NCBI RefSeq assembly: GCF_006345805.1
Contig: NC_043002.1
Coordinates: 85,250,001-85,314,000, forward strand
DNA from: Octopus sinensis
Taxonomy: Eukaryota
DNA: 64,000 bases
Direction: 5' to 3'
The notes under the pieces were generated by a model that was given only the letters and a program-made list of their open reading frames with translations, searched no databases and was not told the origin of the DNA. The position numbers were made by a program, and so were the translations under genes. This document shows positions 4,508 through 60,711 of this stretch, piece by piece. How positions within the stretch are numbered: the first letter of the stretch is position 1; every line of letters begins with the position of its first letter.

Positions 4508-4563
<56 letters not shown>

Positions 4564-4617
4564 AGATCGTTAGCTCCTACACGCATTTTTTTCTCTCCTT
4601 GTTTTTTTTCTGTGTAC

Positions 4618-4653
4618 CTTTCTGTCGAAGAGCGTAGGCTCGAAACGTAAAAG
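4618..4653 (+). ncRNA. Minimal type I hammerhead-like motif (variant core) in Penelope-like end, copy 1
   Basis: CTTT-CTGTCGA-A-GAGC(GTAG)GCTC-GAAAC-GT-A-AAAG: stem I CTTT/AAAG, stem II GAGC/GCTC, palindromic ACGT stem III; core has U in place of A6. Confidence 0.55.
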
Positions 4654-4767
4654 ACTTTTTCTATTCCTGAGCGCTATACTAATACATTTGTTTGTTTGTA
4701 CTCCACCTGCCTTCGTCTTTTATTTATTTTCGTAAACTTTCCCTTTATACACACACACACACACACA

Positions 4768-4829
<62 letters not shown>

Positions 4830-5035
4830 ACACACACACACATATCTGTATGTGTGCGTGCGTGTGTGTGTGTGCATGCAGGCCTGACTGTGGTAAAATG
4901 TTTGCTTCCTAACCACATGGAACCGGCTTCATTTTACCTGCATGGTATTTTGGGCTAGTGTCTTCTACTATAGCCCTTGGTCAACCAAAGCCTTGTAAAT
5001 GGACCTGGTAGACAGAAACCGAAAGAAGCCTGTCG

Positions 5036-5073
<38 letters not shown>

Positions 5074-5138
5074 ATATATATGATAGATCGTTAGCTCCTA
5101 CACGCATTTTTTTCTCTCCTTGTTTTTTTTCTGTGTAC

Positions 5139-5174
5139 CTTTCTGTCGAAGAGCGTAGGCTCGAAACGTAAAAG
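5139..5174 (+). ncRNA. Minimal hammerhead-like motif, copy 2
   Basis: Identical to 4618-4653. Confidence 0.55.
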
Positions 5175-5281
5175 ACTTTTTCTATTCCTGAGCGCTATAC
5201 TAATACATTGTTTGTTTGTACTCCACCTGCCTTCGTCTTTTATTTATTTTCGTAAACTTTCCCTTTATACACACACACACA

Positions 5282-5352
<71 letters not shown>

Positions 5353-5553
5353 ACACACACATATCTGTATGTGTGCGTGCGTGTGTGTGTGTGCATGCAG
5401 GCCTGACTGTGGTAAAATGTTTGCTTCCTAACCACATGGAACCGGCTTCATTTTACCTGCATGGTATTTTGGGCTAGTGTCTTCTACTATAGCCCTTGGT
5501 CAACCAAAGCCTTGTAAATGGACCTGGTAGACAGAAACCGAAAGAAGCCTGTC

Positions 5554-5590
<37 letters not shown>

Positions 5591-5594
<4 letters not shown>

Positions 5595-11647: not shown

Positions 11648-12002
11648 TGATATTGAAAAAATCTGGCATCTCAAGGCGACTACAGTGCCAGTGATTGTAG
11701 GATCTCTAGGAATGATAAAAAGGTACTGAAACCTATTTGAAAATGATTCCAGGCTTACCATCCCTACAGGAAGTGCAAAAAATCGTGTTAACTGGAACGG
11801 CTCATGTATTGAGAAGAGCATTATCGCTGTGAAAACAACATCCATCCATGAATTTATTTATTTATTAATTTTTAAATACATATTTTATCTGTGAATTTGC
11901 GCGTGTAATCTGGGAATGCATACAATGAGTTTCTCTGCCCTAGGTGTACGGAAAACACTCGGCGAGAAACGAAAGAAAATTTGATGAAAGAAGGAAAAAA
12001 AC
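11648..12002 (+). mobile_element. R4/Dong-like LINE family 1, 3' end
   Basis: DIEKIWHLKATTVPVIVGSLGMI...QEVQKIVLTGTAHVLRRALSL* plus 3' UTR ending in TAA repeats. Confidence 0.85.
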
Positions 12003-12012
12003 ATAATAATAA

Positions 12013-12445
12013 AGACAGAAAAGACAATACTTGTAGACTAATAAGATGTAAGTGTTCCCACTGATAAAAATATACCTGTAAAGGAATTTGACAAATTAAG
12101 TAAATATAAGGACCTGGAAATTGAAATACAAAAGATGTGGCATTTTAACTGTTCCTGTTATTGTGGGTACCCTAAGTATGATAACAGAAACATCTATATA
12201 ATATCCCAGGAGAACCATGTTTCATAGAACTCCAAAAGATTGTGCTGATAGGTACTGCCCACATCCTGAGAAAAACCCTATCAATTTAAATGTATGTGTT
12301 GTATTACATGATGTTTCGTTACTGCCCCTGTCACTTCCCCACCCCAAGCTTTCAGTCATACTGTAACATCTCTTATCCTTCACTTGCCCTAGAACGCGGG
12401 GTGTGTCTCGGAGAGTGATTGTAACAAACATGCAGATCAAAAGAA

Positions 12446-12447
<2 letters not shown>
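12013..12447 (+). mobile_element. R4/Dong-like LINE family 2, 3' end
   Basis: DVSVPTDKNIPVKEFDKLSKYKDLEIEIQKMWH...ELQKIVLIGTAHILRKTLSI* plus a distinct 3' UTR ending in (TAA)n. Confidence 0.85.
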
Positions 12448-12512
<65 letters not shown>

Positions 12513-12551
12513 TTTCAAAAGGATTGACCTAATTCTCCACAAAGGTAAATA

Positions 12552-12863
12552 GAAAAGACGAAGAGCGCGATGCGATTGCAATAGATATTTTATTGGTTGA
12601 ACGATATTTCGACAACAATCTTGTCTTTGTCGAGTTCAAAATAAAGAGGGATAAACATTCAAAATTATAGAAATTAAAATCTAATGACATTCCCTCAACT
12701 TATCGACGTTGGTTGTTCTCGTTCATACTTTAGATCTTAATGTGTATAATTTTGAATTTTTATCACTTTTTTATTTTGAACCCGACAAAGATAAGATTGT
12801 TGTCGAAATATCGTTCATCCAATAAAATATCTGTTGCAATCGCAACGCGCTCTTCGTCTTGTC
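12552..12863. mobile_element. MITE/foldback element with ~118-bp terminal inverted repeats, flanked by TA
   Basis: Arms 12552-12669 and 12745-12863 are near-perfect reverse complements; TA at 12550-12551 and 12864-12865. Confidence 0.85.
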
Positions 12864-12956
<93 letters not shown>

Positions 12957-12958
<2 letters not shown>

Positions 12959-14490
12959 TAATGAAAAGAGGAAAACGAGTTAAGAGTAGCAACATCACAC
13001 TAGATAAAACCAATGAAATAAAAGAATTAGACCAAAGCCAAACTTACAAATACTTAGGATTCCATGAACTAGATAAGACACAACACACACAAATGAAAGA
13101 GAAAATAAAAAAAAGAATATTATAGACGAGTTAGATCAATACTAAAAACAGAGCTCAATGCTAAAAACAAGATAATAGTTATTAACACTTTAGCTGTCCC
13201 AGTTATAAGTTACAGCTACTATATCCTTAACTGGACACGAAATGAACTGACCAAAATAGATAGGAAAACAAGAAAAATAATGACAGGATCTAGGATGCAT
13301 CACCCAAAATCTGACATAGAAAGACTATATATACAACGTATAGAAGGTGGTAGAGACCTTATACAACTGGAAAACTACTATAAAATAACCACCATAGGAC
13401 TGCAAAAATATCTACTTCAGAAGGAAGGAAAACTGATACAAATAGCGGCAAAACACGAGCAAAACAAAAAACTGTTCTCAGTATTTAAGGAAGCTGACAA
13501 ATACAAACAAGAAATCATACCACCTAATAAATATGAAGAAGAAGAAGAAGAAGATGAAGAAACAACAAAAGCTATAAAACAAATGAAATCCAAACTAAAA
13601 ATAGAACAGCAACGAACCATGATAAAACGATGGCAAGAAAAGCCCCTTCATGGTAAATACTGGACTAAACTAAACGCAAAAGAAATAGACAAAGAAAAAT
13701 CCCAGCAATAGTTGAGAAGCTCGGGACTCAAAGCAGAAACAGAAGGATTTTTAATTGCAGCACAAGACCAAAGCCACCCCACCAGAAATTACCAAAAACA
13801 TGTAATGAAAAGAAATATAACAAGTAACTGCAGAATATGTGGAGATGGACAAGAAACAATAAATCATATTATCTCTAGCTGCCCAGTCCTGGCTAAGAAG
13901 GAATATATTCACATACATGACAGAGTTGGAACCTACATACATTGGAAGCTATGCCAACATTATGGAATAACAACAGAAAAAAGATGGTATAGGCACACAC
14001 CAGAAAAGGTCACAGGATAAACGAGAAAGCAACCATACTCTGGGATATGCCGATACACACAGATAGAGAAATTAAGGCCAACAGGCCAGATATAGTTGTC
14101 AGAGATCATGAAGAAAAAAAATGCTTTCTAATTGATGTATAGCGGCAGATGACGTGTCTTTAAAAGAAATGGAGAAACTTTCAAAATACAAAGACCTGGA
14201 AATAGAGGTAACCAGACTGTGGAATCTGAAAACAGAAACAATTCCTATCATAGTGGGTGCATTAGGCATGATAAAAAAATATTCAGACAAATACATAACA
14301 AAAACACCAGGACTTGCAAACACATATAACATACAGAAAATTGCACTACTAGGCACTGCACACATCCTACGCAGAACACTTTCCATACAATAACCATCAG
14401 AGCATCACAACAAATCACAGCACATACCCAAGGCACACAGAGCTGCGCTCGGTAGTGAAGTGAAAGCACGCTATAAAAATAAAACTACTG
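12957..14490 (+). mobile_element. R4/Dong-like LINE family 3, 5'-truncated, ~1.5 kb
   Basis: YKYLG, HHPKSDIERLYIQR.EGGR, HGKYW, LKAETEGFLIAAQDQ, CCHC CRICGDGQETINHIISSC, ILWDMPIHTD..IKANRPDI restriction-like endonuclease, KYKDL; a few stops/frameshifts; (TAA)n on both sides. Confidence 0.92.
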
Positions 14491-14509
14491 AATAATAATA
14501 ATAATAATA

Positions 14510-15446
14510 GACCTGCTACAATATGTCGCGAAAGATATGGGTGTAAAGGCATATGAAATGATTGGCAAGGAAGAGTTTAACCAAAGATTAGGAGAAGAGA
14601 AAAGAAGACCTTCTTCAAATGAGAATGCATGGACAGTTTGAAAAGAATACATAGGACGTTAAGGATAATACAGCATCATGAGCATGTCTTGAGCGAGGTG
14701 ATTTGAAGCGTGCCACCGAAAGCCTGATCATTGCTGCACAATACCAGGCTCTCGCTACCAATTCAGTGAAGTATAACATCTATAAAACTTCCGACACCCA
14801 GAAATGCAAACTCTGTAGAAAGAGTGTGGAAAATGTGACCCACTTGGTAAGAGGATGTGAGATCCTTGCACAAAAAGAATACAAGCATCGCCACGATAAA
14901 ATGTGTGTGTATCTTCATTGTCTCTTATGCCGTAAATAGCAATATGAAGTAACAGAGAACTGGCATAAGCATGTATGAGTAAAGTTATGCAGAAGGATGG
15001 AAAAGTAACGATATTCTGGGACTAGGATTTTCAGACAGATAGTATAATCGAACACAGTCGGCCGATATTGTCATATTGAATATGAGAGACAAATTCTGCC
15101 AGATCATTGATGTAGCCATACCAAATGACAAATGTTGTGAGTAAAGAGGTTGAAAAAATCACCAAGTACTCCGAATTGAAAGTGGAAATGGCAAGACTGT
15201 ATGGAATGCGAGAGGGTAATGTAAAAGTGATACCAGTGGTGATCGAGCGTTGGGCTCAATCCCATTGAAACTTCAAGATTTCTTAAGGCAACTGGAAATC
15301 CAATGCAAGATTGATGTCTAGCAAAAAGCAGCTTTATTGTGCACAGTGCACATCTTAAGGAAAATATTGTCTATCTGAGGTCCTTCTTGTGACTTGACAA
15401 ATGACTAAAGACTCCGGTGTATTTTTACCTACACTGTGTTATGAAG

Positions 15447-15447
<1 letters not shown>
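14510..15447 (+). mobile_element. R4/Dong-like LINE family 4, 5'-truncated
   Basis: HGQF, LKRATESLIIAAQYQALATN, CKLCRKSVENVTHLVRGC, RHD, PDIV...IIDVAIPND; (TAA)n on both sides. Confidence 0.9.
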
Positions 15448-15507
<60 letters not shown>

Positions 15508-15720
15508 CGTGTTAACTGGAACGGCCCATGTACTGAGAAGAGCATTATCGCTGTGAAAACAACATCCATTCATGAATTTATTTGTTTATTAATTTTTTAA
15601 ATACATAGTTTACCTGTGAATTTGCGTGTGTAATCTGGGAATGCATACAATGATCTTCTCTGCCCTAGGTGTACGGAAAACACTGGGCGAGAAACGGAAG
15701 AAAATTTGAAGAAAGAAGAA
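15508..15720 (+). mobile_element. R4/Dong-like LINE family 1, second shorter 3' fragment
   Basis: Closely matches ~11784-12000; (TAA)n on both sides. Confidence 0.9.
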
Positions 15721-15749
15721 AATAATAATAATAATATAATAATAATAAT

Positions 15750-15871
<122 letters not shown>

Positions 15872-15890
15872 TGATGATGATGATGATGAT

Positions 15891-18800
15891 AAATTTAAAA
15901 AATGCCGCACACGCCGCTTCCACTAGCGCAAATGTGCTACAAATGATGCAAGAGAAAGTTGCTTGAAATTTTCAGATGTCAAAAAATAATAGTGGTGATG
16001 ACGATGGTGACGAACGTTACCTTACCTCAGATTATTAGAGACAGGGGTTTCCGAAAAACTCTGGTTGTAACAGCGATAATGAAGTTGGACCTTTAAGGAA
16101 GGCCTCTCGCTCGGCAGTGGATCAGTAAAGATGCAGACTGACCACAGATATCATCCTAATGCAGCATTCGCAGATAATAGAGCAAGGAGGAGGAAGTAGA
16201 CTAGTGAAGAAAACAGGATAGCGATACAGTGCTACTTAGAAAGTGAACCTAAAAGAAGGTGCTATAGAAATCTGACACTTTGAGTAGAGAAGGGTATGCT
16301 TAAAGTGACTGGGCAGATATTACTTGATCAAGCTAATGCTATTAGGAGAAGAAAGTGGATGACAGAATTGGAGGTAGAAGAGATCACAAGAGAACTGGAA
16401 AAGAAAGACCAGGCAGTGGGAAAGACAAACAACAACATAGAAGATACATCTCAAACCAAAGAAGAGCCTAAAGGGAAAAAATAATAATAGCACTACCAAT
16501 AAGGAAGGGACAACTGACACCAACGACTTAAGTGATTTAAGTGAGGAAGATCAGAAGATTTTAGATGAGTTGCAGTGCAGGAAGTAATGAGTAAAAAAGT
16601 ATGAAAAAGACTGTCAGCATTAAAAGACACTAACAGAAGGAAGCTACAAGAAATGACTAGGAAAGCAGATTCTGTTATCAGTACGATAGATACTAAAAAT
16701 ATAGATACTAAATATATAATATATAATATATAATATATAATATATAATATAATATAAATATAGATACTAAATATATAAAAAATATAGATACTAAAAATAT
16801 AGAAGACACTAACTTATTGATCTGTGCAGATGGGGCAGTAGTCACTAGAATATTAGATATCTTACTGGGAAATATTTAAAAAGAGCAACTGTGGAAAAGA
16901 AGACTACAAAATAAAGTGAAGACTTTAAGACAAGATCTGAGTAGAAAGAAGCCTGGAAAACAAACAAGTTAGGAAACACAAGATGCAAATCTTGCCTCTA
17001 GGAAAGATACTTAGTCAAAGAGAAAAGATTTGAGACAATAATAGACGAGTTAAAACAATGTACCATAGCAGTAGCAGGCAAACTGTCCATATATCAGCGA
17101 AGAGTAGATCAGTATCAAGAAAATAGATTATTTGAGACAGATCAGAGGGGATTTTATAACCAAATAAATAGTGGAGAACGAAGTACTGAAGATGAGAAAC
17201 CTAATACAGAGGAAGCTAGAAAGTTCTGGAGTAATATTTGGTATAAACCAGTAAATCAAAATGGAGATGCAGTATGGTTAAAGAAAGTGAGGAAAGAAGT
17301 AGTGAGTGAGAAGCAGCCAGATCTAAGATTAACTAGTGCATTAACGAGTAAGGTGTTAGGAAAAATGCCGAATTGAAAGGACGCAGGACCAGATTTAGTT
17401 CACGGGTACTGGCTAAAGGAATTCAGTATTTTACATAGGAGGCTGAGGGAACAACTTCAGGATTACCTTAATGGAGGAATAATACCAGACTGGATGACTA
17501 GAGGGTGGACAATCCTCACTATGAAGGACAAGAGCAAGGATAATATAGCTAGCAACTGTAGGCCAATTACTTGCTTACCATTAGTGAGGAAGCTGTTAAT
17601 AGGAATGCTTTCAGAAAGCATTTACGAGCACCTTGACAACCAAAAGTTACAAGCAGAGGAACAGAAAAATTGCAGAAAGCTGGCTTGAGGAACACATGAT
17701 CGATTATATATAGACAAAGCAGTTCTAAATGAAGTAAAAGCTAGAAAGAAAAATCTAAAAATAGCATTGATAGATAATAGGAAAGCCATAAGTATATTCA
17801 GTGTAGCAGACAACATAACAGAATTAATTAGCTTTAGCTTGAAGAAATGGAAAGTACATCTATATTCATGTCACACACTATTAGGGAAAGTTAATATCAA
17901 AAGAGGAATTTCCCAGGGGGACTTGTTGTCCTTGTTAATATTTGTCTTATGCTTGATACCCCTGTTTAGTATTAAGGAAGGCAAACGCAGGGTATCAGTT
18001 CAGAAATAGCAATGGAAAAAATTAACCATTTGCTCTACATAGATGATCTGAAGCTGTTTAGTAAGAATGAAAAAGAGATAGATTCCTTAATACAGACTTC
18101 AAGACTTTTCAGTAAAGATACAGGCATGGAATTTGGCATAGATAAGTGTGCAATATTAGTCATGAGAAGGAGACAGGTAGTCAACAGTGAAGGCATCCAA
18201 TAGATAGCCAGACATTAAAATCATTGAAAGAGGAGAGAGCTATAAGTATCTAGGAGTATTAGAATCTGAGGGAGTACTAACTACAGAAATGAAAACGAAA
18301 ATTGAGAAGGAATGCATCAGAAGGGTGAGGAAGCTAATGACGTCAAAGCTAAATGTTTCGAACCTAGTGAATGCTGTAGTTACTGTAGTTACTTAGATAC
18401 TCAGTAGCTTTTGTAGATTGGACAAAAACTGAATTAGCGAAGCTGGAAAGAAGAACTCGGAAGGAATTCAAAATGAATGGAGGACTCCACCCAAGGGCAG
18501 GAGTAGCAAGATTATAGCTACCTAGAAAGGAAGGTAGAATAGGGTTAATATCTGTAGAAGACTGTGTGGAGTTAGCTATAGAGTGAATGTAGACTCCTAT
18601 GTAGGTAATAGTGAAGAACAGAAATGATCTGACTGGCAAGAGAAGGCGCTGCATGGTAGATTCCCGAAGATAATTTCGGCAAATAGTAGTTGTGAGACTT
18701 GGTTATGACTGCATAAAGGAAAGCTGAAGAGGGAGATAGAAAGTTTGTTAGTTGCTGTATAAGATCAGGCATTAAGGACTAATTGAATAAAAGCCAAAAT

Positions 18801-19465
18801 AGAAAAAAACCAAGCAGATTCCCAATGTAGATTACGCAAATCAAAAGAGGAAAGCGTTACTCACATAGTAAGTGAATGTAGTATGCTGGCACAGAAAGAA
18901 TACAAGAAAAGACACAACAATCTAGAGGGAGCAATCCACTGGGAGCTTTATAGAAACCTAGGATTTTAACATACTGATAAATGGTATAAACGTGAACCTT
19001 GTAAAGTACTAGAAAGTAAGAAATACAAGATGTTGTGGGACTTTAACATTCAGACTGACAGAGTAATAGAAGCTGGAAAGCCTGATTTGGTAGTAGATAA
19101 AGAGAATAGAAAGTGCCAGATAATTGGTTTTACAGTCCTAAATGATGAAAAAATTAATATGAGAAGTATAGAAAAAGTAGTAAAGTACAAGGACCTTGCT
19201 ATTGAATTAGAGAGACTATAGAATGTGCGGGTAAAATGTATCCCGATAGTTGTAGGTGCATTGGGAACTATCGTTAAAAATCTGAACAGATGGATAGAGG
19301 AAATAGTCATAAAACCCAGTTTAGTACAGCTGCAGAAAATAATGTTATTCAGGACAGCTAGGATACTTAGTAGGGTTCTTGGCATCAAAAGTTACTTGCT
19401 ATAACCCAGTTAGAGAGTTTTTGGCATCTAAGGCTACTTGTTGTAGCCCGATGTTAGGATTCGTA
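15891..19465 (+). mobile_element. R4/Dong-like LINE family 5, near full length but decayed
   Basis: N-terminal TSEENRIAIQCYLESEP...LLDQANAIRRRKWMTELEVEEI; ENRLFETDQRGFY; AGPDLVHGYWLK; SNCRPITCLPL; RGISQGDLLS; INHLLYIDDLKLF; GMEFGIDKC; YKYLG; decayed CCHC; LWDFNIQTD..IEAGKPDL; many stops and deletions. Confidence 0.92.
16686..16802. repeat. Local ATAGATACTAAA duplications and (TATAA)n expansion interrupting the family 5 LINE
   Basis: ATAGATACTAAA occurs four times around an AT-only tract. Confidence 0.8.
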
Positions 19466-40548: not shown

Positions 40549-40978
40549 GGATCTTTTCGGTTTGAACGGCAGTTTTTTCTAGCGGTGTCATATGAAATTG
40601 TCAACAATAATTATGACCCTAGTATCGATCTATTGCATTTCAATCTGTTTTAGGGTTAGGGTTACGGTTACGGTTAGGGGTGGGGGGAAGGGTATCTTTT
40701 TTTCTTCACAAATGTAAATAAACCCAATCTGTTTCTTAAACGAGGGACATATTCATACGGCACAGAATGTTTTTTTACCTCAATAGACGTCAGTGATTGG
40801 TTGAAAATCCAGAAATTGAAGAAAAATAACAACAAATATCTTACAAACTGTAGAATTTTCTCAATAAAGCCAAGAGAAAAAGATGTTTCATAAACACATT
40901 CTACCAGTATACGAAGTTTTAAATTTTTTAGTTACCTAGAAATTATGTTAAAAACTGCCGTTCAAACCGAAAAGATCT
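40549..40978 (+). mobile_element. TTAGGG-containing MITE, copy 1, 8-bp TSD
   Basis: 28-bp TIR GGATCTTTTCGGTTTGAACGGCAGTTTT; TSD TATCTGGT at 40541-40548 and 40979-40986. Confidence 0.93.
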
Positions 40979-41899: not shown

Positions 41900-42320
41900 G
41901 GATCTTTTCGGTTTGAACGGCAGTTTTTTCTAGCGGTGTCATATGAAATTGTCACCCATAATTATGACCCCAGAATCGATCTATTGCATTTCAATCTGTT
42001 TTAGGGTTAGGGTTAGGGGTGGGGGAAGGGTATCTTTTTTTCTTCACAAATGTAAATAAACCCAATCTGTTTCTTAAACGAGGGACATATTAATACGGCA
42101 CAGAATGTTTTTTTTACCTCAATAGACGTCAGTGATTGGTTGAAATTGCAGAAATTGAAGAAAAAACAAACAACAAATATTTTACAAACTGTAGAATTTT
42201 CTCAATAAAGACAAGAGAAAAAGATGTTTTATAAACACATTCTACCAGTATACGAAGTTTAAAATGTTTTTAGTTACCTAAAAATTATGTTAAAATCTGC
42301 CGTTCAAACCGAAAAGATCC
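41900..42320 (+). mobile_element. TTAGGG-containing MITE, copy 2
   Basis: Same TIRs and body; TSD degenerate. Confidence 0.93.
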
Positions 42321-50035: not shown

Positions 50036-50089
<54 letters not shown>

Positions 50090-50091
<2 letters not shown>

Positions 50092-50619
50092 GTGAGAGAG
50101 CAGTGCATGCCATCAAAGTGACACTGGGGTAAAATATACGAAGCCCAGTATACCCATCATGGCTACCCTCACAACATGCCTCACAACCATATGTGCGCGA
50201 CATGGTGATCTCATATCTAGATAAACAGCACATGACCTTGCAGGTGGGGCCCAGTTAGAATTTCTTCTGCTTGTGTAGCCTAACCAGCTCAAAAGGTCCC
50301 TGAATAAGGATTGTTTAAGGATGTTGAACGAAACACCCATGTTTCCAAAGGTGAATTATCCAAACCGCTAACAATTCATTTCAACACACGGCTATGATGC
50401 TCCCCCACTACTTCTGCTCGTGATCAGAGATGCACATATCGTCAGCCACTAAGGTACATGGTCAACTGGTTAAGGTCAAACAACTGACAAGCAAATCTGT
50501 GGTATTGAGCAGAATATCTGCTGTAGCCCATCTTTTATACCATGACAAATCATTGTACATGATAACACTTTCAATAAGTTAAGATCAAAAGCCATGAGAG
50601 CCACTGCCTGGTACTGCAT
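50090..50619 (-). mobile_element. TAA-associated non-coding element F, copy 1
   Basis: ~530-bp unit between plus-strand (TTA)n tracts, homologous to three other copies; strand inferred from the truncation pattern. Confidence 0.85.
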
Positions 50620-50667
50620 ATTATTATTATTATTATCATTATTATTATTGTTATTATAATTATTATT

Positions 50668-51215
50668 GAGTGAGCGAGCAGAGCATGCCATCAAAGTGAC
50701 ACTGGGGTAAAATATACGAAGCCCAGTATACCCATCATGACTACCCGTCTGATAAGGGTACACCAGGCACATGCATCACAACCATATGTGCGCTACATGG
50801 TGATCTCATATCAAGATAAACAGCACATGACCTTGCAGGTGGAGCCCAGTTAGAATTTTCTTCAGATCGAGTAACCCATCCCGCTCAAAAGGTCCCTGAA
50901 TAAGGGTTGTTTAAGGACGTTGAACAAAACACCCATGTTTCCAGAGGTGAATTATTCAAACTCCAAAGAATCCTTCTCAACACATGGCTATGATGCTCCC
51001 CAACTACTTCTGCTCGTGATCAGAGATGCACATATCGTCAGCCACTAAGGGACATGCTCAACTGGTTAAGGTCAAACAACTGACAAGCAAATCTGTGGTA
51101 TTGAGCAGAATATCTGCTGTAGCCCATCTTTTATACCATGACAAATCATTGTACATGATAACACTTTCAATAAGTTAAGATCAAAAGCCATGAGAGCCAC
51201 TGCCTGGTACTGCAT
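50668..51215 (-). mobile_element. Element F, copy 2
   Basis: As copy 1. Confidence 0.85.
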
Positions 51216-51231
51216 ATTATAATTATTATTA

Positions 51232-51306
<75 letters not shown>

Positions 51307-51326
51307 TAATTATCATTATTATTACT

Positions 51327-51772
51327 GAGTGAGAGAGCAGTGCATGCCGTCAAAGTGACACTGGAGTAAAATATACGAAGCCCAGTACTCATCTGATAAA
51401 GGTATATCAGGCACATGCCTCACAACCATATGTGCGCGATATGGTGATCTTATATTAAGATAAACAGCGCATGACCTTGCAGGTAGGGCTCAGTTAGAAT
51501 TTTCTTCAGGTCGAGTAGCCTATCCCACTTAAATGATCCCTGAATAAGGGTTGTTTAAGGATGTTGAACGAAACACCCATGTTCCCAAAGGTAAATTATC
51601 CAAACCCCAAAGAATTCCTTTCAATATATGGCTATGATGCTCCCCCACTACTTCTGCTCATGATCAGATATACGCATATCGTCAGCCACTAAGGGACATG
51701 CTCAACTGGTTAAGATCAAACTTCTGACGAGCAAATCTGTGGTATTGAACAGAATATTTGTTGTAGCCCATC

Positions 51773-51773
<1 letters not shown>
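51327..51773 (-). mobile_element. Element F, copy 3, truncated at the right end
   Basis: Stops at GCCCATCT and runs directly into (TTA)n. Confidence 0.85.
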
Positions 51774-51815
<42 letters not shown>

Positions 51816-52059
51816 TGTGTCTTGAGAAAGAGGATGTGTGCTCGTGACTCGCAAAATTTCTTTAAATATTTTTTTTATTATTCGTTATAGCCCTCTAAGG
51901 GTGAATTTTGAAATTTCAAATTTAGTATCTTCAAACAAAAATATCAAAATGGCTTCCCATATCGAGGGAAGCGATGGCTGTTGGAATAGCTACTATGGCA
52001 TTGTTTTCCAACCACTTGTCGACGTGGTCGAAAAACGAAGCAGTAGTAGCAGTAACAAT

Positions 52060-52094
<35 letters not shown>

Positions 52095-52107
52095 AACAAC
52101 TACTACT

Positions 52108-52164
<57 letters not shown>

Positions 52165-53190
52165 CTGCTACTGCTGCTGCTGCTACAGAAGAAGCAGCAG
52201 CGACGAGCAAAATACATTTAAAACTGACGCAAGCCTGACCCCCGCCATCACCACTACCACTACCGCTACCGCCGTCACCACTACCACAACCATTAATAAA
52301 ACGACAACAGCTACTCTTTTTTCTAAGCAGAATGGGAAACGGTTTAACACATGCTTGTTGGAAAATGCAATAAGTCAAATTGACACAAAAAATGTTGTGC
52401 GACGCTAAGCTGTATTTAACAAAGAATAGTAGAACAGTTTTCCCCAATATACCGGATGGAGTGAAAGAAACCACTAAAAAAACTCACTAATATATAAATG
52501 TATATCATTAAAGACGAGGGAACTAGAGCGAGCGATGCAGGCTCAGATCAAAAAATGCCGGAGACTAGCCCAGAGTTTAAAGAAAGTATGTCACCCGTGG
52601 GAGACGCTTTGGCACGGTTAAGTAAGATTCTCAACTGAAGAATTAGCCAAAGAAAATACCACAACAACCCTCAAAAGTGAGGACTTGTGGCTAATCCCGA
52701 CATACCTCGGTCGAAGTGTTGTCAAATAAAGGTAGCGGATGTGCCCCCAGAAGTGTACATCTCTTCGCTGGTGACAGCCGTATAATATGGCATAGAGGAC
52801 AAAATAAAAATTCTGCAAGTCCACAAAATAGGAAAGGGAAACTGGTCAGACACAGGCATGGGAATGTAGTTACACGCCGATCTAAAGGCTGTCGAAGCTA
52901 TCCCTGACCTAAACAATTTACCTAATGGGACAAAGTTTGGAAGACAGAAAACCGAGATGCCACAACTGTGACGAAACAAACCATTTAAAGGCTTGCTGCC
53001 CCATGCAAAGAAAAACCCTGCTGTTGCACCTCTAACAACAACAACAACACAACAACAACAACAGTGCCAAGAGCAGTAGCATCCAAAACTAAAAGAACAA
53101 CAGCATCGACAGAAAGAGCAGCAGGAGAAATATATTCAACATCAACAAGTACCGGTACCACACCTGAGAAAAAACTATAACAAACAACTA
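51816..53190 (+). pseudogene. L1/Tx1-type LINE 5' region and ORF1 (gag-like) remnant
   Basis: Decayed frame VRFSTEELAKE...LIPTYLGRSVV.IKVADVPPEV...IPDL..LPNG then zinc knuckle EDRKPRCHNCDETNHLKACC (C-X2-C-X4-H-X4-C, ~52940-53000); interrupted by trinucleotide repeats at 52041-52190. Confidence 0.7.
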
Positions 53191-53192
53191 CA

Positions 53193-53740
53193 TCATCCTG
53201 ATGGTAACCGCAATCCTCTGCAGGATGCTTTCTTCCCTCTTTTCATATTAAGCACTGAACATCTGGTGATCCCAAATTCCATACCGATGTCCCTACCACA
53301 CTTGTGGACTGTTTTGAGCAAGGAATCTATCTGTTTTTCAAGTTTCCCAAACAATTTCAGGTCATCCATAAACAGAAGATGGTTCAATGATGGGCCTTTT
53401 TTCCCACATCGGTAACCCACCTTAACTTTCCTAGGTGTCATTGTTATGGGTATTAGTGCAATTTTAAATAGTAACGGAGAAAACGAGTCACCTTGGAAGA
53501 TTCCCCTTTTAATATTAACTTCTCCAAGGAATACATTACTTGAGTACAATTTGGTTTTCCACTCTTTCATGCTATGCATCAGAAAATTTGTGATGTTGTT
53601 AGCAGCACCACACATCTGCAGGCATTCAACGATCCAAGAATGAGGCATCATATACCTTCTTAAAGTCAATCTAAGCTATAGACATGTTTGTGTGATGTTT
53701 TTTTACAATGCCTCAAAACTGTTCTGTCGGTGTCCCTTTC
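53193..53740 (-). pseudogene. R4/Dong-like reverse transcriptase fragment
   Basis: MPHSWIVECL...IKRGIFQGDSFSPLLF...LNHLLFMDDLKLFGK...GMEFGITRC, homologous to 17850-18200. Confidence 0.9.
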
Positions 53741-53771
<31 letters not shown>

Positions 53772-53810
53772 TAATAATAATAATATAATAATAATAATAT
53801 AATAATAATA

Positions 53811-53855
<45 letters not shown>

Positions 53856-54370
53856 GAGTGAGAGAGCAGCACATGCCATCAAAGTAACTCTGTATACCCA
53901 TCATGATTACTCGTCTGATAAGGGCATACCAGGCACATGCATCACAACCATGTGTGCAAAATGGTGGTCTCATATCAAGATAAACAACACACGACCTTGC
54001 AGGTGGGGCTCAGTTAGAATTTTCTTCAGGTTGAGTAACATATCCTGCTCAAAGGGCCTCTGAAGAAGGATAATGAACGAAACACCTATGTTCCCAGAGG
54101 GGAATTATTCAAACCCTAAAGAATTCCTCTCGATACATGATGCTCCCCCACCCACTACTCCTGCCTGTGATCAGACATGCACATATTGTCAGCCACTAAG
54201 AGACATACTCAATTGGTTAAGGTCAAACAACTGACAAAATAAATCTGTGTTATTGAACAGAATATTTGCTGTAGCCCATCTTTTTATACAAAGACAAAAC
54301 ATGTACATAAAAACACTTTCAATCAGTTAAGATCAGAAACTATGAGAGATAGTGCTTGGTATAGCATCAG
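53856..54370 (-). mobile_element. Element F, copy 4 (more diverged)
   Basis: Same left terminus GAGTGAGAGAGCAG next to (TTA)n. Confidence 0.85.
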
Positions 54371-55566: not shown

Positions 55567-55968
55567 GGATCTTTTCGGTTTGAACGGCAGTTTTTTCTAG
55601 CGGTGTCATATGAAATTGTCACCCATAATTATGACCCAAGAATCGATCTATGGCATTTCAATCTGTTTTAGGGTTAGGGTTAGGGGTGGGGGAAGGGTAT
55701 CTTTTTTTTTTCACAAATGTAAATAAACCCAATCTGTTTCTTAAACGAGGGACATATTCATACGGCACAGAATGCTTTTTAACTCAATAGACGTCAGTGA
55801 TTGGTTGGAATTGCAGAAATTAAAGAAAAAAGCAACAATAAATATCTTATAAACTATAGAATTTTCTCAATAAAGCCAAGAGAAAAATTCTACCAGTATA
55901 CGAAGTTAAAAAATTTTTTAGTTACCTAAAAATTATGTTAAAAACTGCCGTTCAAACCGAGAAGATCC
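55567..55968 (+). mobile_element. TTAGGG-containing MITE, copy 3, 8-bp TSD
   Basis: TSD GAAATTTA at 55559-55566 and 55969-55976. Confidence 0.93.
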
Positions 55969-56824: not shown

Positions 56825-57250
56825 GGATCTTTTCGGTTTGAACGGCAGTTTTTAACATAATTTCTATGTAACTAAAAAATTTTAAACTTCGTATACTGGT
56901 AGAATGTGTTTATAAAACATCTTTTTCCCTTGGCTTTATTGAGAAAATTCTATAGTTTGTAAGATATTTGTTGTTTTTTTTCTTCTATTTCTGCAATTTC
57001 AACCAATCACTGACGTCTGTTGAGGTAAAAAAAAACATTCTGTGCCGTATGAATATGTCCCTCGTTTAAGAAACAGATTGGGTTTATTTACATTTGTGAA
57101 GAAAAAAGATACCCTTCCCCCCACCCCTAACGCTAACCCTAACCCTAAAACAGATTGAAATGCAATAGATCGATACTAGGGTCATAATTATGGGTGACAA
57201 TTTCATATGACACCGCTAGAAAAAAACTGCCGTTCAAACCGAAAAGATCC
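56825..57250 (-). mobile_element. TTAGGG-containing MITE, copy 4
   Basis: Perfect TIRs, reversed body with CCCTAA repeats; no matching TSD. Confidence 0.93.
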
Positions 57251-57459: not shown

Positions 57460-58042
57460 CCTTTCTACTATAGGCACAAGGCCCGAAATTTTGAGGGAGG
57501 GGTAATCGATCACTTCGACCCCAGTACTTTACTGGTACTTAATTCATCGACATCGAAAGGATGAAAGGCAAAGTCGACCTCAGCGGAATTTGAACTCAGA
57601 ATGTAACGGCAGACGAAACACCTATTTCTTTACTACCCACAAGGGGCTAAACACAGAGAGGACAAACAAGGACAGACAAACAGGTTAAATCGATTACATC
57701 GACCCCAGTGCGTAACTGGTACTTATTTAATCGACCCCGAAAGGATGAAAGGCAAAGTCGACCTCGGCGGAATTTGAACTCAGAACGTAACGGCAGACAA
57801 AATACCTATTTCTTTACTACCCACAAGGGGCTAAACACAGAGGGTACAAACAAGGACAGACAAACGGATTAAGTCGATTACATCGACCCCAGTGCGTAAC
57901 TGGTACTTATTTAATCGATCCCGAAAGGATGAAAACCAAAGTCAACCTCGGCGGAATTTGAACTCAGAACGTAACGGCAGACAAAATACCGCAAAGCACT
58001 TCGCCCGGCGTGCTAACGTTTCTACCAGCTCGCCGCCTTTAC
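57460..58042 (-). mobile_element. SINE family A, internal trimer with 15-bp TSD
   Basis: Three B-box/central-box units; TSD TTATTACAACATAAT at 57445-57459 and 58043-58057. Confidence 0.92.
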
Positions 58043-60334: not shown

Positions 60335-60711
60335 AGATCTTTTCGGTTTGACCGGCAGTTTTTTCTAGCGGTGTCATATGAAATTGTCACCCATAATTAT
60401 GACCCTAGTATCGATCTATTGCAGTTCAATCTGTTTTAGGGTTAGGGTTAGGGGTGGGGGGAAGGGTATCTTTTTTTCTTCACAAATGTAAACAAACCCA
60501 ATCTGTTTCTTAAACGAGGGACATATTCATACGGCACAGAATGGTTTTTACCTCAATAGACGTCAGTGATTGGTTGAAATTGCAGAAATTGAAAAAAACA
60601 ATAAATATCTTACAAACTATAGAATTTTTTTCGATATCAGTATACGAAGTTTAACATTTTTAAGTTACCTAGAAATTATGTTAAAAACTGCCGTTCAAAC
60701 CGAAAAGATCC
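60335..60711 (+). mobile_element. TTAGGG-containing MITE, copy 5, 8-bp TSD
   Basis: TSD CAAATTTG at 60327-60334 and 60712-60719. Confidence 0.93.

What the first reader, a model, noticed from the sequence alone, without database searches (positions are those of the whole stretch)
50037..54370. ~530-bp non-coding element always inserted in (TAA)n: candidate non-autonomous partner of the R4/Dong LINEs
Seen: four copies, three in tandem separated only by trinucleotide tracts. On the minus strand all end ...CTGCTC(T/G)CTCACT(C/T) followed by (AAT)n, the same polarity as the LINE stack, while the other end varies (copy 3 lacks ~85 bp and joins TAA directly). I see no long ORF, TIR or tRNA A/B boxes. 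The 3' end can fold (ACTGGG/CCCAGT, GTGTCA/TGGCAT) but does not reproduce the LINE 3x1 motif exactly. Known: a fixed 3' end with variable 5' truncation is the TPRT signature, and R2 has non-autonomous SIDEs. Inference: a microsatellite-targeted, non-tRNA retroposon that borrows the Dong machinery.
Basis: partly seen in the sequence, partly recalled or inferred. Interest (0 to 1): 0.72.

Follow-up and report, generated by a model that had tools for sequence, protein, structure and literature searches.

The report
MITE-bearing hitchhiker of TAA-seeking retrotransposons
This is a very abundant 554-base non-coding repeat that sits in TAA simple repeats in the same direction as the Dong jumping genes and likely borrows their copying enzyme, although it shows no detectable sequence shared with them or with tRNA, and its middle third matches a piece of an older cut-and-paste DNA transposon.

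Summary
The element is real. The four window copies belong to a 554-nt non-coding family with 12,724 exact genome hits to a 3' motif (control 0). A 600-kb spaced sample suggests roughly 40,000 copies. The 3' end is fixed, and so is the full-length 5' end: 17 of 30 3'-anchored copies were full length, 12 were 5'-truncated, none ran into a LINE ORF. Of 130 complete-3' copies, 127 are followed by an AAT tract and 105 preceded by one (background about 1%), in Dong polarity. Short 5' duplications occur in 17 of 136 copies and 0 of 67 control repeats. I found no tRNA, 5S, tRNA-Sec, Rfam or HDV head, and no homology to 89 Dong 3' ends or five Dong 5' regions. New here: positions 101-270 are 96% identical to the inside of an older 489-bp MITE. 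Best reading: a chimeric, headless SINE-like RNA copied in trans by R4/Dong enzymes. The partner family and the promoter are not identified. The scan noted this element before on other DNA of this genome (e1-10333100). New variant of a known kind; interest 0.5.

The parts
50091..50619 (-). Copy c1 (consensus 7-553, 17-nt internal deletion, 91% identity)
50668..51215 (-). Copy c2 (consensus 7-554, 96% identity)
51327..51778 (-). Copy c3, 5'-truncated at about consensus 88-95
53856..54370 (-). Copy c4, oldest (consensus 4-554, 81% identity with gaps); 5' flank is a CAA tract
51122..51215 (-). Head module in c2 (consensus 7-100): unknown origin, predicted closed hairpin, candidate promoter or 5'-processing signal
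   Evidence: (fold z -2.5, best of 7 segments); origin tests negative
50952..51121 (-). MITE-shared block in c2 (consensus 101-270; 164/170 identical to MITE consensus 207-376)
50721..50768 (-). Predicted 3' hairpin in c2 (consensus 454-501) with a Dong-like 3x1 internal loop; not significant on its own
50036..50090 (.). (AAT)n tract 3' of c1 (reads ATT on + strand)
50619..50667 (.). (AAT)n tract between c2 and c1
51215..51324 (.). (AAT)n/(ACT)n tract between c3 and c2
51773..51815 (.). (AAT)n tract 5' of c3
53741..53855 (.). Trinucleotide tract 3' of c4; it changes orientation at about 53811
53193..53675 (-). Decayed Dong-type reverse-transcriptase fragment beside c4
   Evidence: RVT_1 E 7e-10; 41% to the Dong ORF of L115
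11658..19389 (+). Stack of R4/Dong LINE pieces of several families in (AAT)n tracts: the candidate enzyme donors

Best explanation
A 554-nt non-coding, chimeric retroposon with fixed ends that is likely copied into TAA microsatellites by target-primed reverse transcription using the protein of a co-resident R4/Dong LINE. Shown: copy number, both ends, 5' truncation, TAA flanks in Dong polarity, short duplications at the 5' junction, and a 170-nt block shared with an older MITE. Inferred steps: (1) an RNA starts 2-4 nt before the fixed 5' end, most likely from a promoter inside the 100-nt head (about 0.5; self-cleavage from read-through RNA about 0.3; atypical Pol III about 0.2); (2) the RNA runs into downstream AAU repeats; (3) Dong protein binds its 3' region, probably by shape (the 454-501 hairpin) plus AAU pairing with the nicked target and not by shared sequence; (4) reverse transcription often stalls in the structured head, giving truncations mostly at 50-110, and stutters at the 5' end, giving duplications; (5) the founder was assembled by template jumps or from a transcribed locus that held a MITE piece.
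For: Counts. Truncation polarity: of 30 3'-anchored copies 17 full, 1 internally deleted, 12 5'-truncated; of 30 5'-anchored loci 27 reach 552-554. Flanks: AAT downstream 127 of 130, upstream 105 of 130, background 1.1-1.3% and 0.9%; control repeats 0-1 of 95 and 1 of 113 hits. Same strand and same AAT register as Dong 3' ends (10 of 12 Dong C-termini in the spaced sample followed by the tract). 5' duplications 17 of 136 against 0 of 67 (Fisher p 0.0009); Dong family C has 2-5 tandem 5' units in 10 of 26 evaluable loci and a repeated junction in L118. Ages overlap: element median about 2.7% from consensus (32 copies), Dong families 1-9%. One element-head/Dong-body fusion without TAA in L134. 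Dong targets (TAA)n in insects, molluscs and cnidarians (PMC7998251, passages); R2 RT jumps templates in vivo (PMC3414825 section 8).
Against: No sequence link to any Dong end sampled: best hits to 89 3' ends had E >= 0.3; no hit to the family C 5' end or four other 5' regions. R2-type proteins are described as stringent for their own 3' UTR (PMC3414825 abstract). The 3x1 motif is not significant (61 of 200 shuffles) and my descriptor found a motif in only 7 of 12 Dong families. The three frequent variants in the hairpin keep pairing but none is compensatory (about 0.2 by chance, my arithmetic). No promoter or ribozyme was identified, and three T4 runs lie on the sense strand. By the same duplication metric Dong C scored only 3 of 65, and its tandem 5' units may be part of the master. 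The L134 fusion may be a deletion. Most copies came from motif- or best-hit searches and lean young. Only about a dozen Dong families were sampled; an annotation of a related genome lists 51 (PMC13282606 supplement row).
Confidence: 0.7

Rival explanations
1. It is a bipartite derivative (SIDE) of a Dong family that I did not sample or that is extinct: head and/or tail are that LINE's UTRs, with the MITE block inserted between. Mobilised by Dong, but ordinary in origin.
For: R2 forms SIDEs (PMC3414825 abstract). Dong UTRs here differ greatly between families. Only five 5' regions and about a dozen 3' families were compared. An 11-nt match to the family H 3' UTR exists (E 3.6).
Against: No recurrent loose end marking a family that shares only the head or only the tail among the best-supported rows (lower rows not shown), while the same table exposed the MITE. 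The 3' part (271-554) is longer than any Dong 3' UTR seen (about 60-220 nt).
Confidence: 0.14
2. Another LINE clade (Tx1, CR1, RTE or another RLE clade) supplies the enzyme; the AAT tract is a tail or a shared landing pad.
For: Earlier scan notes report a Tx1-like and a CR1-like family associated with the same repeat (e1-9939279; not tested here). No sequence ties the element to Dong.
Against: Upstream tracts (105 of 130) need a targeting nuclease, not only a tail.
Confidence: 0.1
3. It spreads as DNA: recombination or conversion between TAA tracts, or a microsatellite-targeting DNA transposon related to the MITE.
For: c1 and c2 share seven non-consensus bases over 1-170, so local DNA-level exchange occurs. 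The middle block is MITE-derived.
Against: Strict 3' end with one-sided truncation. The MITE's inverted repeats are not in the element. One polarity relative to the tract.
Confidence: 0.04
4. It is only the 3' UTR of a LINE, seen as truncated copies.
For: 5'-truncated copies exist (12 of 30).
Against: Fixed 5' end in 5,604 exact hits; 30 of 30 5'-anchored loci preceded by TAA-type tracts or element duplications, none by an ORF.
Confidence: 0.02

Closest known systems
R2 SIDEs and R2/R1 hybrid SIDEs of Drosophila (PMC3414825; abstract and section 8 read)
   Same: Non-autonomous, non-Pol III-head RNAs mobilised by a site-specific LINE; variable 5' junctions; template jumps.
   Different: SIDEs are made of the LINE's 5' ribozyme and 3' end and are rare rDNA insertions. 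This element shows no LINE homology or HDV fold and has tens of thousands of dispersed copies in a microsatellite.
EhSINE1 of Entamoeba histolytica (PMC2996970, passages read)
   Same: 500-600 bp, non-coding, no identified small-RNA precursor, partner of a LINE that I recall as R4-group/RLE (recalled; the passages read did not state the clade).
   Different: EhSINE1 shares about 70 bp of 3' end with EhLINE1, has A/B-like boxes and TSDs, and is not targeted to a repeat.
LP-SINEs of gastropods and bivalves (PMC4758252, section 10 and passages read)
   Same: Molluscan SINE-like elements without a small-RNA head, possibly Pol II-transcribed, modular.
   Different: Their head is a 70-bp Nimb/RTE 5' UTR piece and they have TSDs; I could not compare that sequence. 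No microsatellite targeting reported there.
Dong elements of the R4 clade (PMC7998251, PMC3774820, passages read)
   Same: (TAA)n target, polarity, 5' truncation.
   Different: Autonomous, single ORF; Bombyx Dong has a tested 5' HDV-like ribozyme, not found here.
Non-autonomous TIR transposon (MITE) of this genome, described here
   Same: 170-nt internal block, 96% consensus identity.
   Different: 489 bp, about 120-bp imperfect inverted repeats, TTA/TAA target duplication, about 11% diverged, not TAA-tract targeted.

Membership tests
Canonical SINE (SINE1/2/3/U) | Head derived from tRNA, 5S, 7SL or snRNA | tested here: not met
   No Rfam hit near threshold at E <= 10; ARAGORN 0; own 5S: 373-1790 of 2000 shuffles as good; own tRNA-Sec: 211 and 422 of 2000
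Canonical SINE (SINE1/2/3/U) | Internal Pol III A and B boxes | tested here: not met
   One A-like stretch at 23, only a loose B-like match at 116, T4 runs at 76, 332, 510 (box patterns recalled)
Canonical SINE (SINE1/2/3/U) | Short, non-coding, high copy, fixed 3' end with 5' truncation | tested here: met
Canonical SINE (SINE1/2/3/U) | 3' tail shared with a partner LINE | tested here: not met
   89 Dong 3' ends, best E 0.3; non-Dong LINE tails not compared directly; no tail-sharing loose end among rows shown
Canonical SINE (SINE1/2/3/U) | Transcription by Pol III as a discrete RNA | not testable with these tools
   Only contigs were available
SIDE / bipartite non-autonomous LINE | 5' and 3' ends homologous to one autonomous LINE | tested here: not met
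   limited to five 5' regions and about a dozen 3' families
SIDE / bipartite non-autonomous LINE | 5' HDV-like ribozyme (R2/R4 type) | tested here: inconclusive
   Own loose descriptor: 0 hits in element, 0 in five Dong C 5' ends, 22 of 100 shuffles hit; no positive control. Rfam negative
Dong-dependent retroposon (works like) | Insertion in (TAA)n in Dong polarity and register | tested here: met
Dong-dependent retroposon (works like) | Dong-type 3' stem / 3x1 loop / stem | tested here: inconclusive
   Present at 463-492, 62 nt from the end; 61 of 200 shuffles; no compensatory change
Dong-dependent retroposon (works like) | Mobilisation in trans by Dong protein | not testable with these tools
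   Needs an assay
LP-SINE | About 70-bp Nimb/RTE-like 5' domain | not tested
   The sequence is in a figure not held
MITE | Terminal inverted repeats and TSD | tested here: not met
   Only the internal block is shared; the inverted repeats are absent
Retrozyme | Hammerhead ribozyme, tandem units | tested here: not met
   Core-like words at 181 and 357 without a fitting stem by eye; no Rfam hit

The most novel reading that the evidence does not exclude
A SINE-like RNA with no small-RNA head and no LINE-derived sequence, partly built from a DNA transposon, reached tens of thousands of copies by mimicking the 3' RNA shape that R4/Dong proteins recognise, showing that a site-specific RLE retrotransposon protein can be hijacked in trans by shape plus target-repeat pairing alone.
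Probability: 0.35. Interest if true: 0.72.

Novelty: new variant of a known kind. Interest (0 to 1): 0.5.

Why it matters
R2/R4-type proteins are regarded as stringent for their own 3' RNA. A natural, high-copy cargo of unrelated sequence would define the minimal RNA needed for trans insertion into a microsatellite, which bears on how SINEs are born and on using such enzymes for site-directed insertion. The MITE block gives a traceable source for a SINE 'body', a part usually of unknown origin (PMC5786205, parts 1-3 of 5 read). About 0.6% of the spaced sample is this element, and it can be misannotated as a DNA transposon through that block.

Tried and rejected
5S origin: looked suggestive by eye, not above shuffles. 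tRNA-Sec origin: not above shuffles. HDV and hammerhead: no fit; the descriptor had no positive control. Dimer model (a 266-nt monomer ending in AAT): 1 genome hit only. Insertion of the block into a pre-existing MITE: 0 empty MITEs. A distinct old subfamily for c4: best hits were the same family at 81-85%. Expression: no RNA holder listed on record; runs X1 and X8 are guessed RNA and contigs only, so they say nothing on strand, start or level. Presence in runs labelled with five organism codes (four laid) shows spread among related labels only. Control repeat S1 dropped out of the duplication test (1 copy passed the 85% filter). Sequence look-up in earlier findings gave nothing. Literature searches gave no description of this element or of a Dong-mobilised SINE in animals; Repbase, Dfam and the repeat library deposited with PMC13282606 (893 recently active 'unclassified SINE' families) could not be searched and may hold it.
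Full report
Setting. The window lies at G000:C6:85,250,001-85,314,000 in a 2.72-Gb genome.

Observation. Four copies lie on the minus strand at 50091-50619, 50668-51215, 51327-51778 and 53856-54370, the first three separated only by trinucleotide tracts. A 30-nt 3' motif has 12,724 exact genome matches and a 26-nt 5' motif 5,604; reversed controls give 0. In 60 evenly spaced 10-kb stretches I found 9 copies in 5 stretches, after setting aside one hit that is the MITE. That scales to about 40,000 copies (Poisson range about 19,000-77,000, wider because copies cluster; my arithmetic) and about 0.6% of the sample. A consensus of 33 full-length copies is 554 nt, 45% GC, with no stop-free frame over 59 codons.

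Ends. Of the first 30 matches to the 3' motif on C1, 17 were full length, one kept its head with an internal deletion, and 12 were 5'-truncated: nine at 52-109 and three at 346-402. Of 30 loci anchored on the 5' motif (two are one copy), 27 reached 552-554. None joined a LINE ORF. The commonest six bases before the start were ATAAAT (33 copies; next AATAAT, 7). This is out of phase with the tract and recurs before duplicated 5' pieces, so the RNA probably begins 2-4 nt earlier.

Target. Over 235 sequences (926 kb), 127 of 130 copies with a complete 3' end and both flanks in view were followed by an AAT tract and 105 were preceded by one; background was 1.1-1.3%. Most of these came from motif or best-hit searches. 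In the spaced sample, by eye, 7 of 9 had the 3' tract and 5 of 8 evaluable had the 5' tract, background 0.9%. Two other dispersed repeats of the window, which look like tRNA-headed SINEs by eye, had AAT flanks in 1 and 0 of 95 hits and in 1 and 1 of 113 hits. Dong 3' ends are followed by the same tract on the same strand (10 of 12 C-termini). The LINE itself carries an RT domain. I assign it to R4/Dong from its single long ORF, its TAA target and a C-terminal region of restriction-like type (recalled), with PMC7998251 (passages) for the target.

Junction signature. Short duplications of the first copied bases lie upstream of 17 of 136 element copies and 0 of 67 control copies (p 0.0009). Dong family C gave 3 of 65 on the same metric, but its full-length 5' end is a 20-nt unit present 2-5 times in 10 of the 26 loci where it could be scored, out of 30. 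In L134 two 5' fragments of the element join directly to an internal point of a truncated Dong copy: a template jump or a deletion. The element's divergence from consensus (median about 2.7%, range 0.9-17%, 32 copies, biased young) overlaps that of eight Dong families (medians 1-9%).

Search for the partner's sequence. The consensus had no significant match to 89 Dong 3' ends from about a dozen families (best E 0.3), to 20 LINE loci including a putative full-length family C copy (hits there were separate element copies or one fused head), or to four further 5' regions. Laying public contigs on the 3' half showed no recurrent tail-sharing family among the rows displayed (523 lower rows not shown). 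A hairpin at 454-501 holds a 3x1 loop like those in Dong UTRs, but 61 of 200 shuffles do too, and the descriptor caught only 7 of 12 Dong families. Three frequent variants in its stem keep pairing without compensation. The structure link is therefore a hypothesis.

Head. Rfam gave nothing near threshold and ARAGORN nothing. Alignments to the genome's own 5S and tRNA-Sec were not above shuffles. There is one A-like stretch, no convincing B box, and three T4 runs. A loose HDV descriptor found nothing in the element or in five Dong C 5' ends (no positive control), whereas Bombyx Dong self-cleaves at its 5' junction (PMC3774820, passages). Positions 1-100 fold as a closed unit (z -2.5, best of seven segments); the whole RNA has z -2.85. 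Linked frequent variants suggest several source copies, which favours a portable promoter; this is inference.

New finding: a MITE-derived body. Loose ends in contigs of four runs recurred at element positions 104 and 270. A 23-nt motif from them has 378 exact genome matches. All 30 loci fetched share element positions about 101-270. They form a 489-bp element with about 120-bp imperfect inverted repeats; a TTA or TAA duplication is present in 12 of the 17 loci where both termini were found; 25 of the 30 copies were aligned (five partial or interrupted ones left out) and average 11% from their consensus. The shared block is 164/170 identical between the two consensuses. The direction is probably MITE to retroposon: the MITE is older on average, no empty MITE was found, no monomer ending at the block exists (1 hit), and the two most diverged full copies carry the MITE base at 213 (2 of 13 copies under 90% against 0 of 89 over 94%). 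At the other five diagnostic sites old copies mostly carry the element base, so this last point is weak. The MITE's superfamily was not determined.

Mechanism. Shown: dispersal, ends, truncation polarity, target, junction duplications, composite body. Inferred: RNA intermediate; Dong protein as enzyme (0.7 for the whole reading; 0.14 more for a Dong-derived SIDE); recognition by shape and AAU pairing; promoter in the head; assembly by template jumps, which R2 performs in vivo (PMC3414825 section 8).

Comparison. It works like R2 SIDEs, EhSINE1 and LP-SINEs in being a non-Pol III-head passenger, but it fails membership of canonical SINEs and, on the LINEs sampled, of SIDEs. Kojima lists only RTE, Ingi, Vingi and R2 as sources of bipartite non-autonomous LINEs (PMC5786205, parts 1-3 of 5). 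Octopus papers report Dong-R4 and many unclassified SINEs without describing this pairing (PMC13282606 parts 1-2 of 3 and a supplement search; PMC9115989 and PMC8967140, passages). Nine searches found no description; repeat databases were out of reach, so a bare consensus may already be deposited.

Verdict. A real, abundant, TAA-targeted non-autonomous retroposon; new variant of a known kind; interest 0.5, higher if shape-only hijacking of Dong is shown.

Noticed in passing
window 50091-51215: c1 and c2 differ at 1 site over consensus 1-170 and share seven non-consensus bases there and the same 6-nt 5' loss, but differ at 49 positions over 171-554: local conversion or unequal exchange between tandem copies.
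   Followed up: partly
L205-L234 (e.g. L213): 489-bp MITE with CACTG termini, about 120-bp imperfect inverted repeats and TTA/TAA duplication; superfamily and autonomous partner unknown.
   Followed up: partly
L145-L174: Full-length Dong family C starts with 1-5 tandem copies of a 20-nt unit; no HDV fold found by my descriptor, unlike Bombyx Dong.
   Followed up: partly
window 11658-19389 and loci: At least a dozen Dong families with unrelated 3' UTR sequences; several share a stem / 3x1 loop / stem with a G-U pair after the loop.
   Followed up: partly
window 15890-19389: Near full-length decayed Dong copy (family G) with the N-terminal region present.
   Followed up: partly
window 53741-53855: The trinucleotide tract flips orientation at about 53811, so the Dong RT fragment at 53193-53740 is preceded by the tract in the unusual direction; possibly an inversion.
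   Followed up: no
L134 (oriented as) 2473-2555: Two 5' fragments of the element (31 and 50 nt) fused to an internal point of a Dong copy without TAA between.
   Followed up: partly
window 57504-57990 and 4515-5591: A 184-bp unit repeated 2.6 times in tandem, and a 520-bp tandem duplication at 98% identity.
   Followed up: no
window 40549-40977, 41900-42319, 55567-55967, 56826-57250, 60336-60710: Five copies of another 430-bp dispersed repeat, used only as a control; not TAA-flanked.
   Followed up: no
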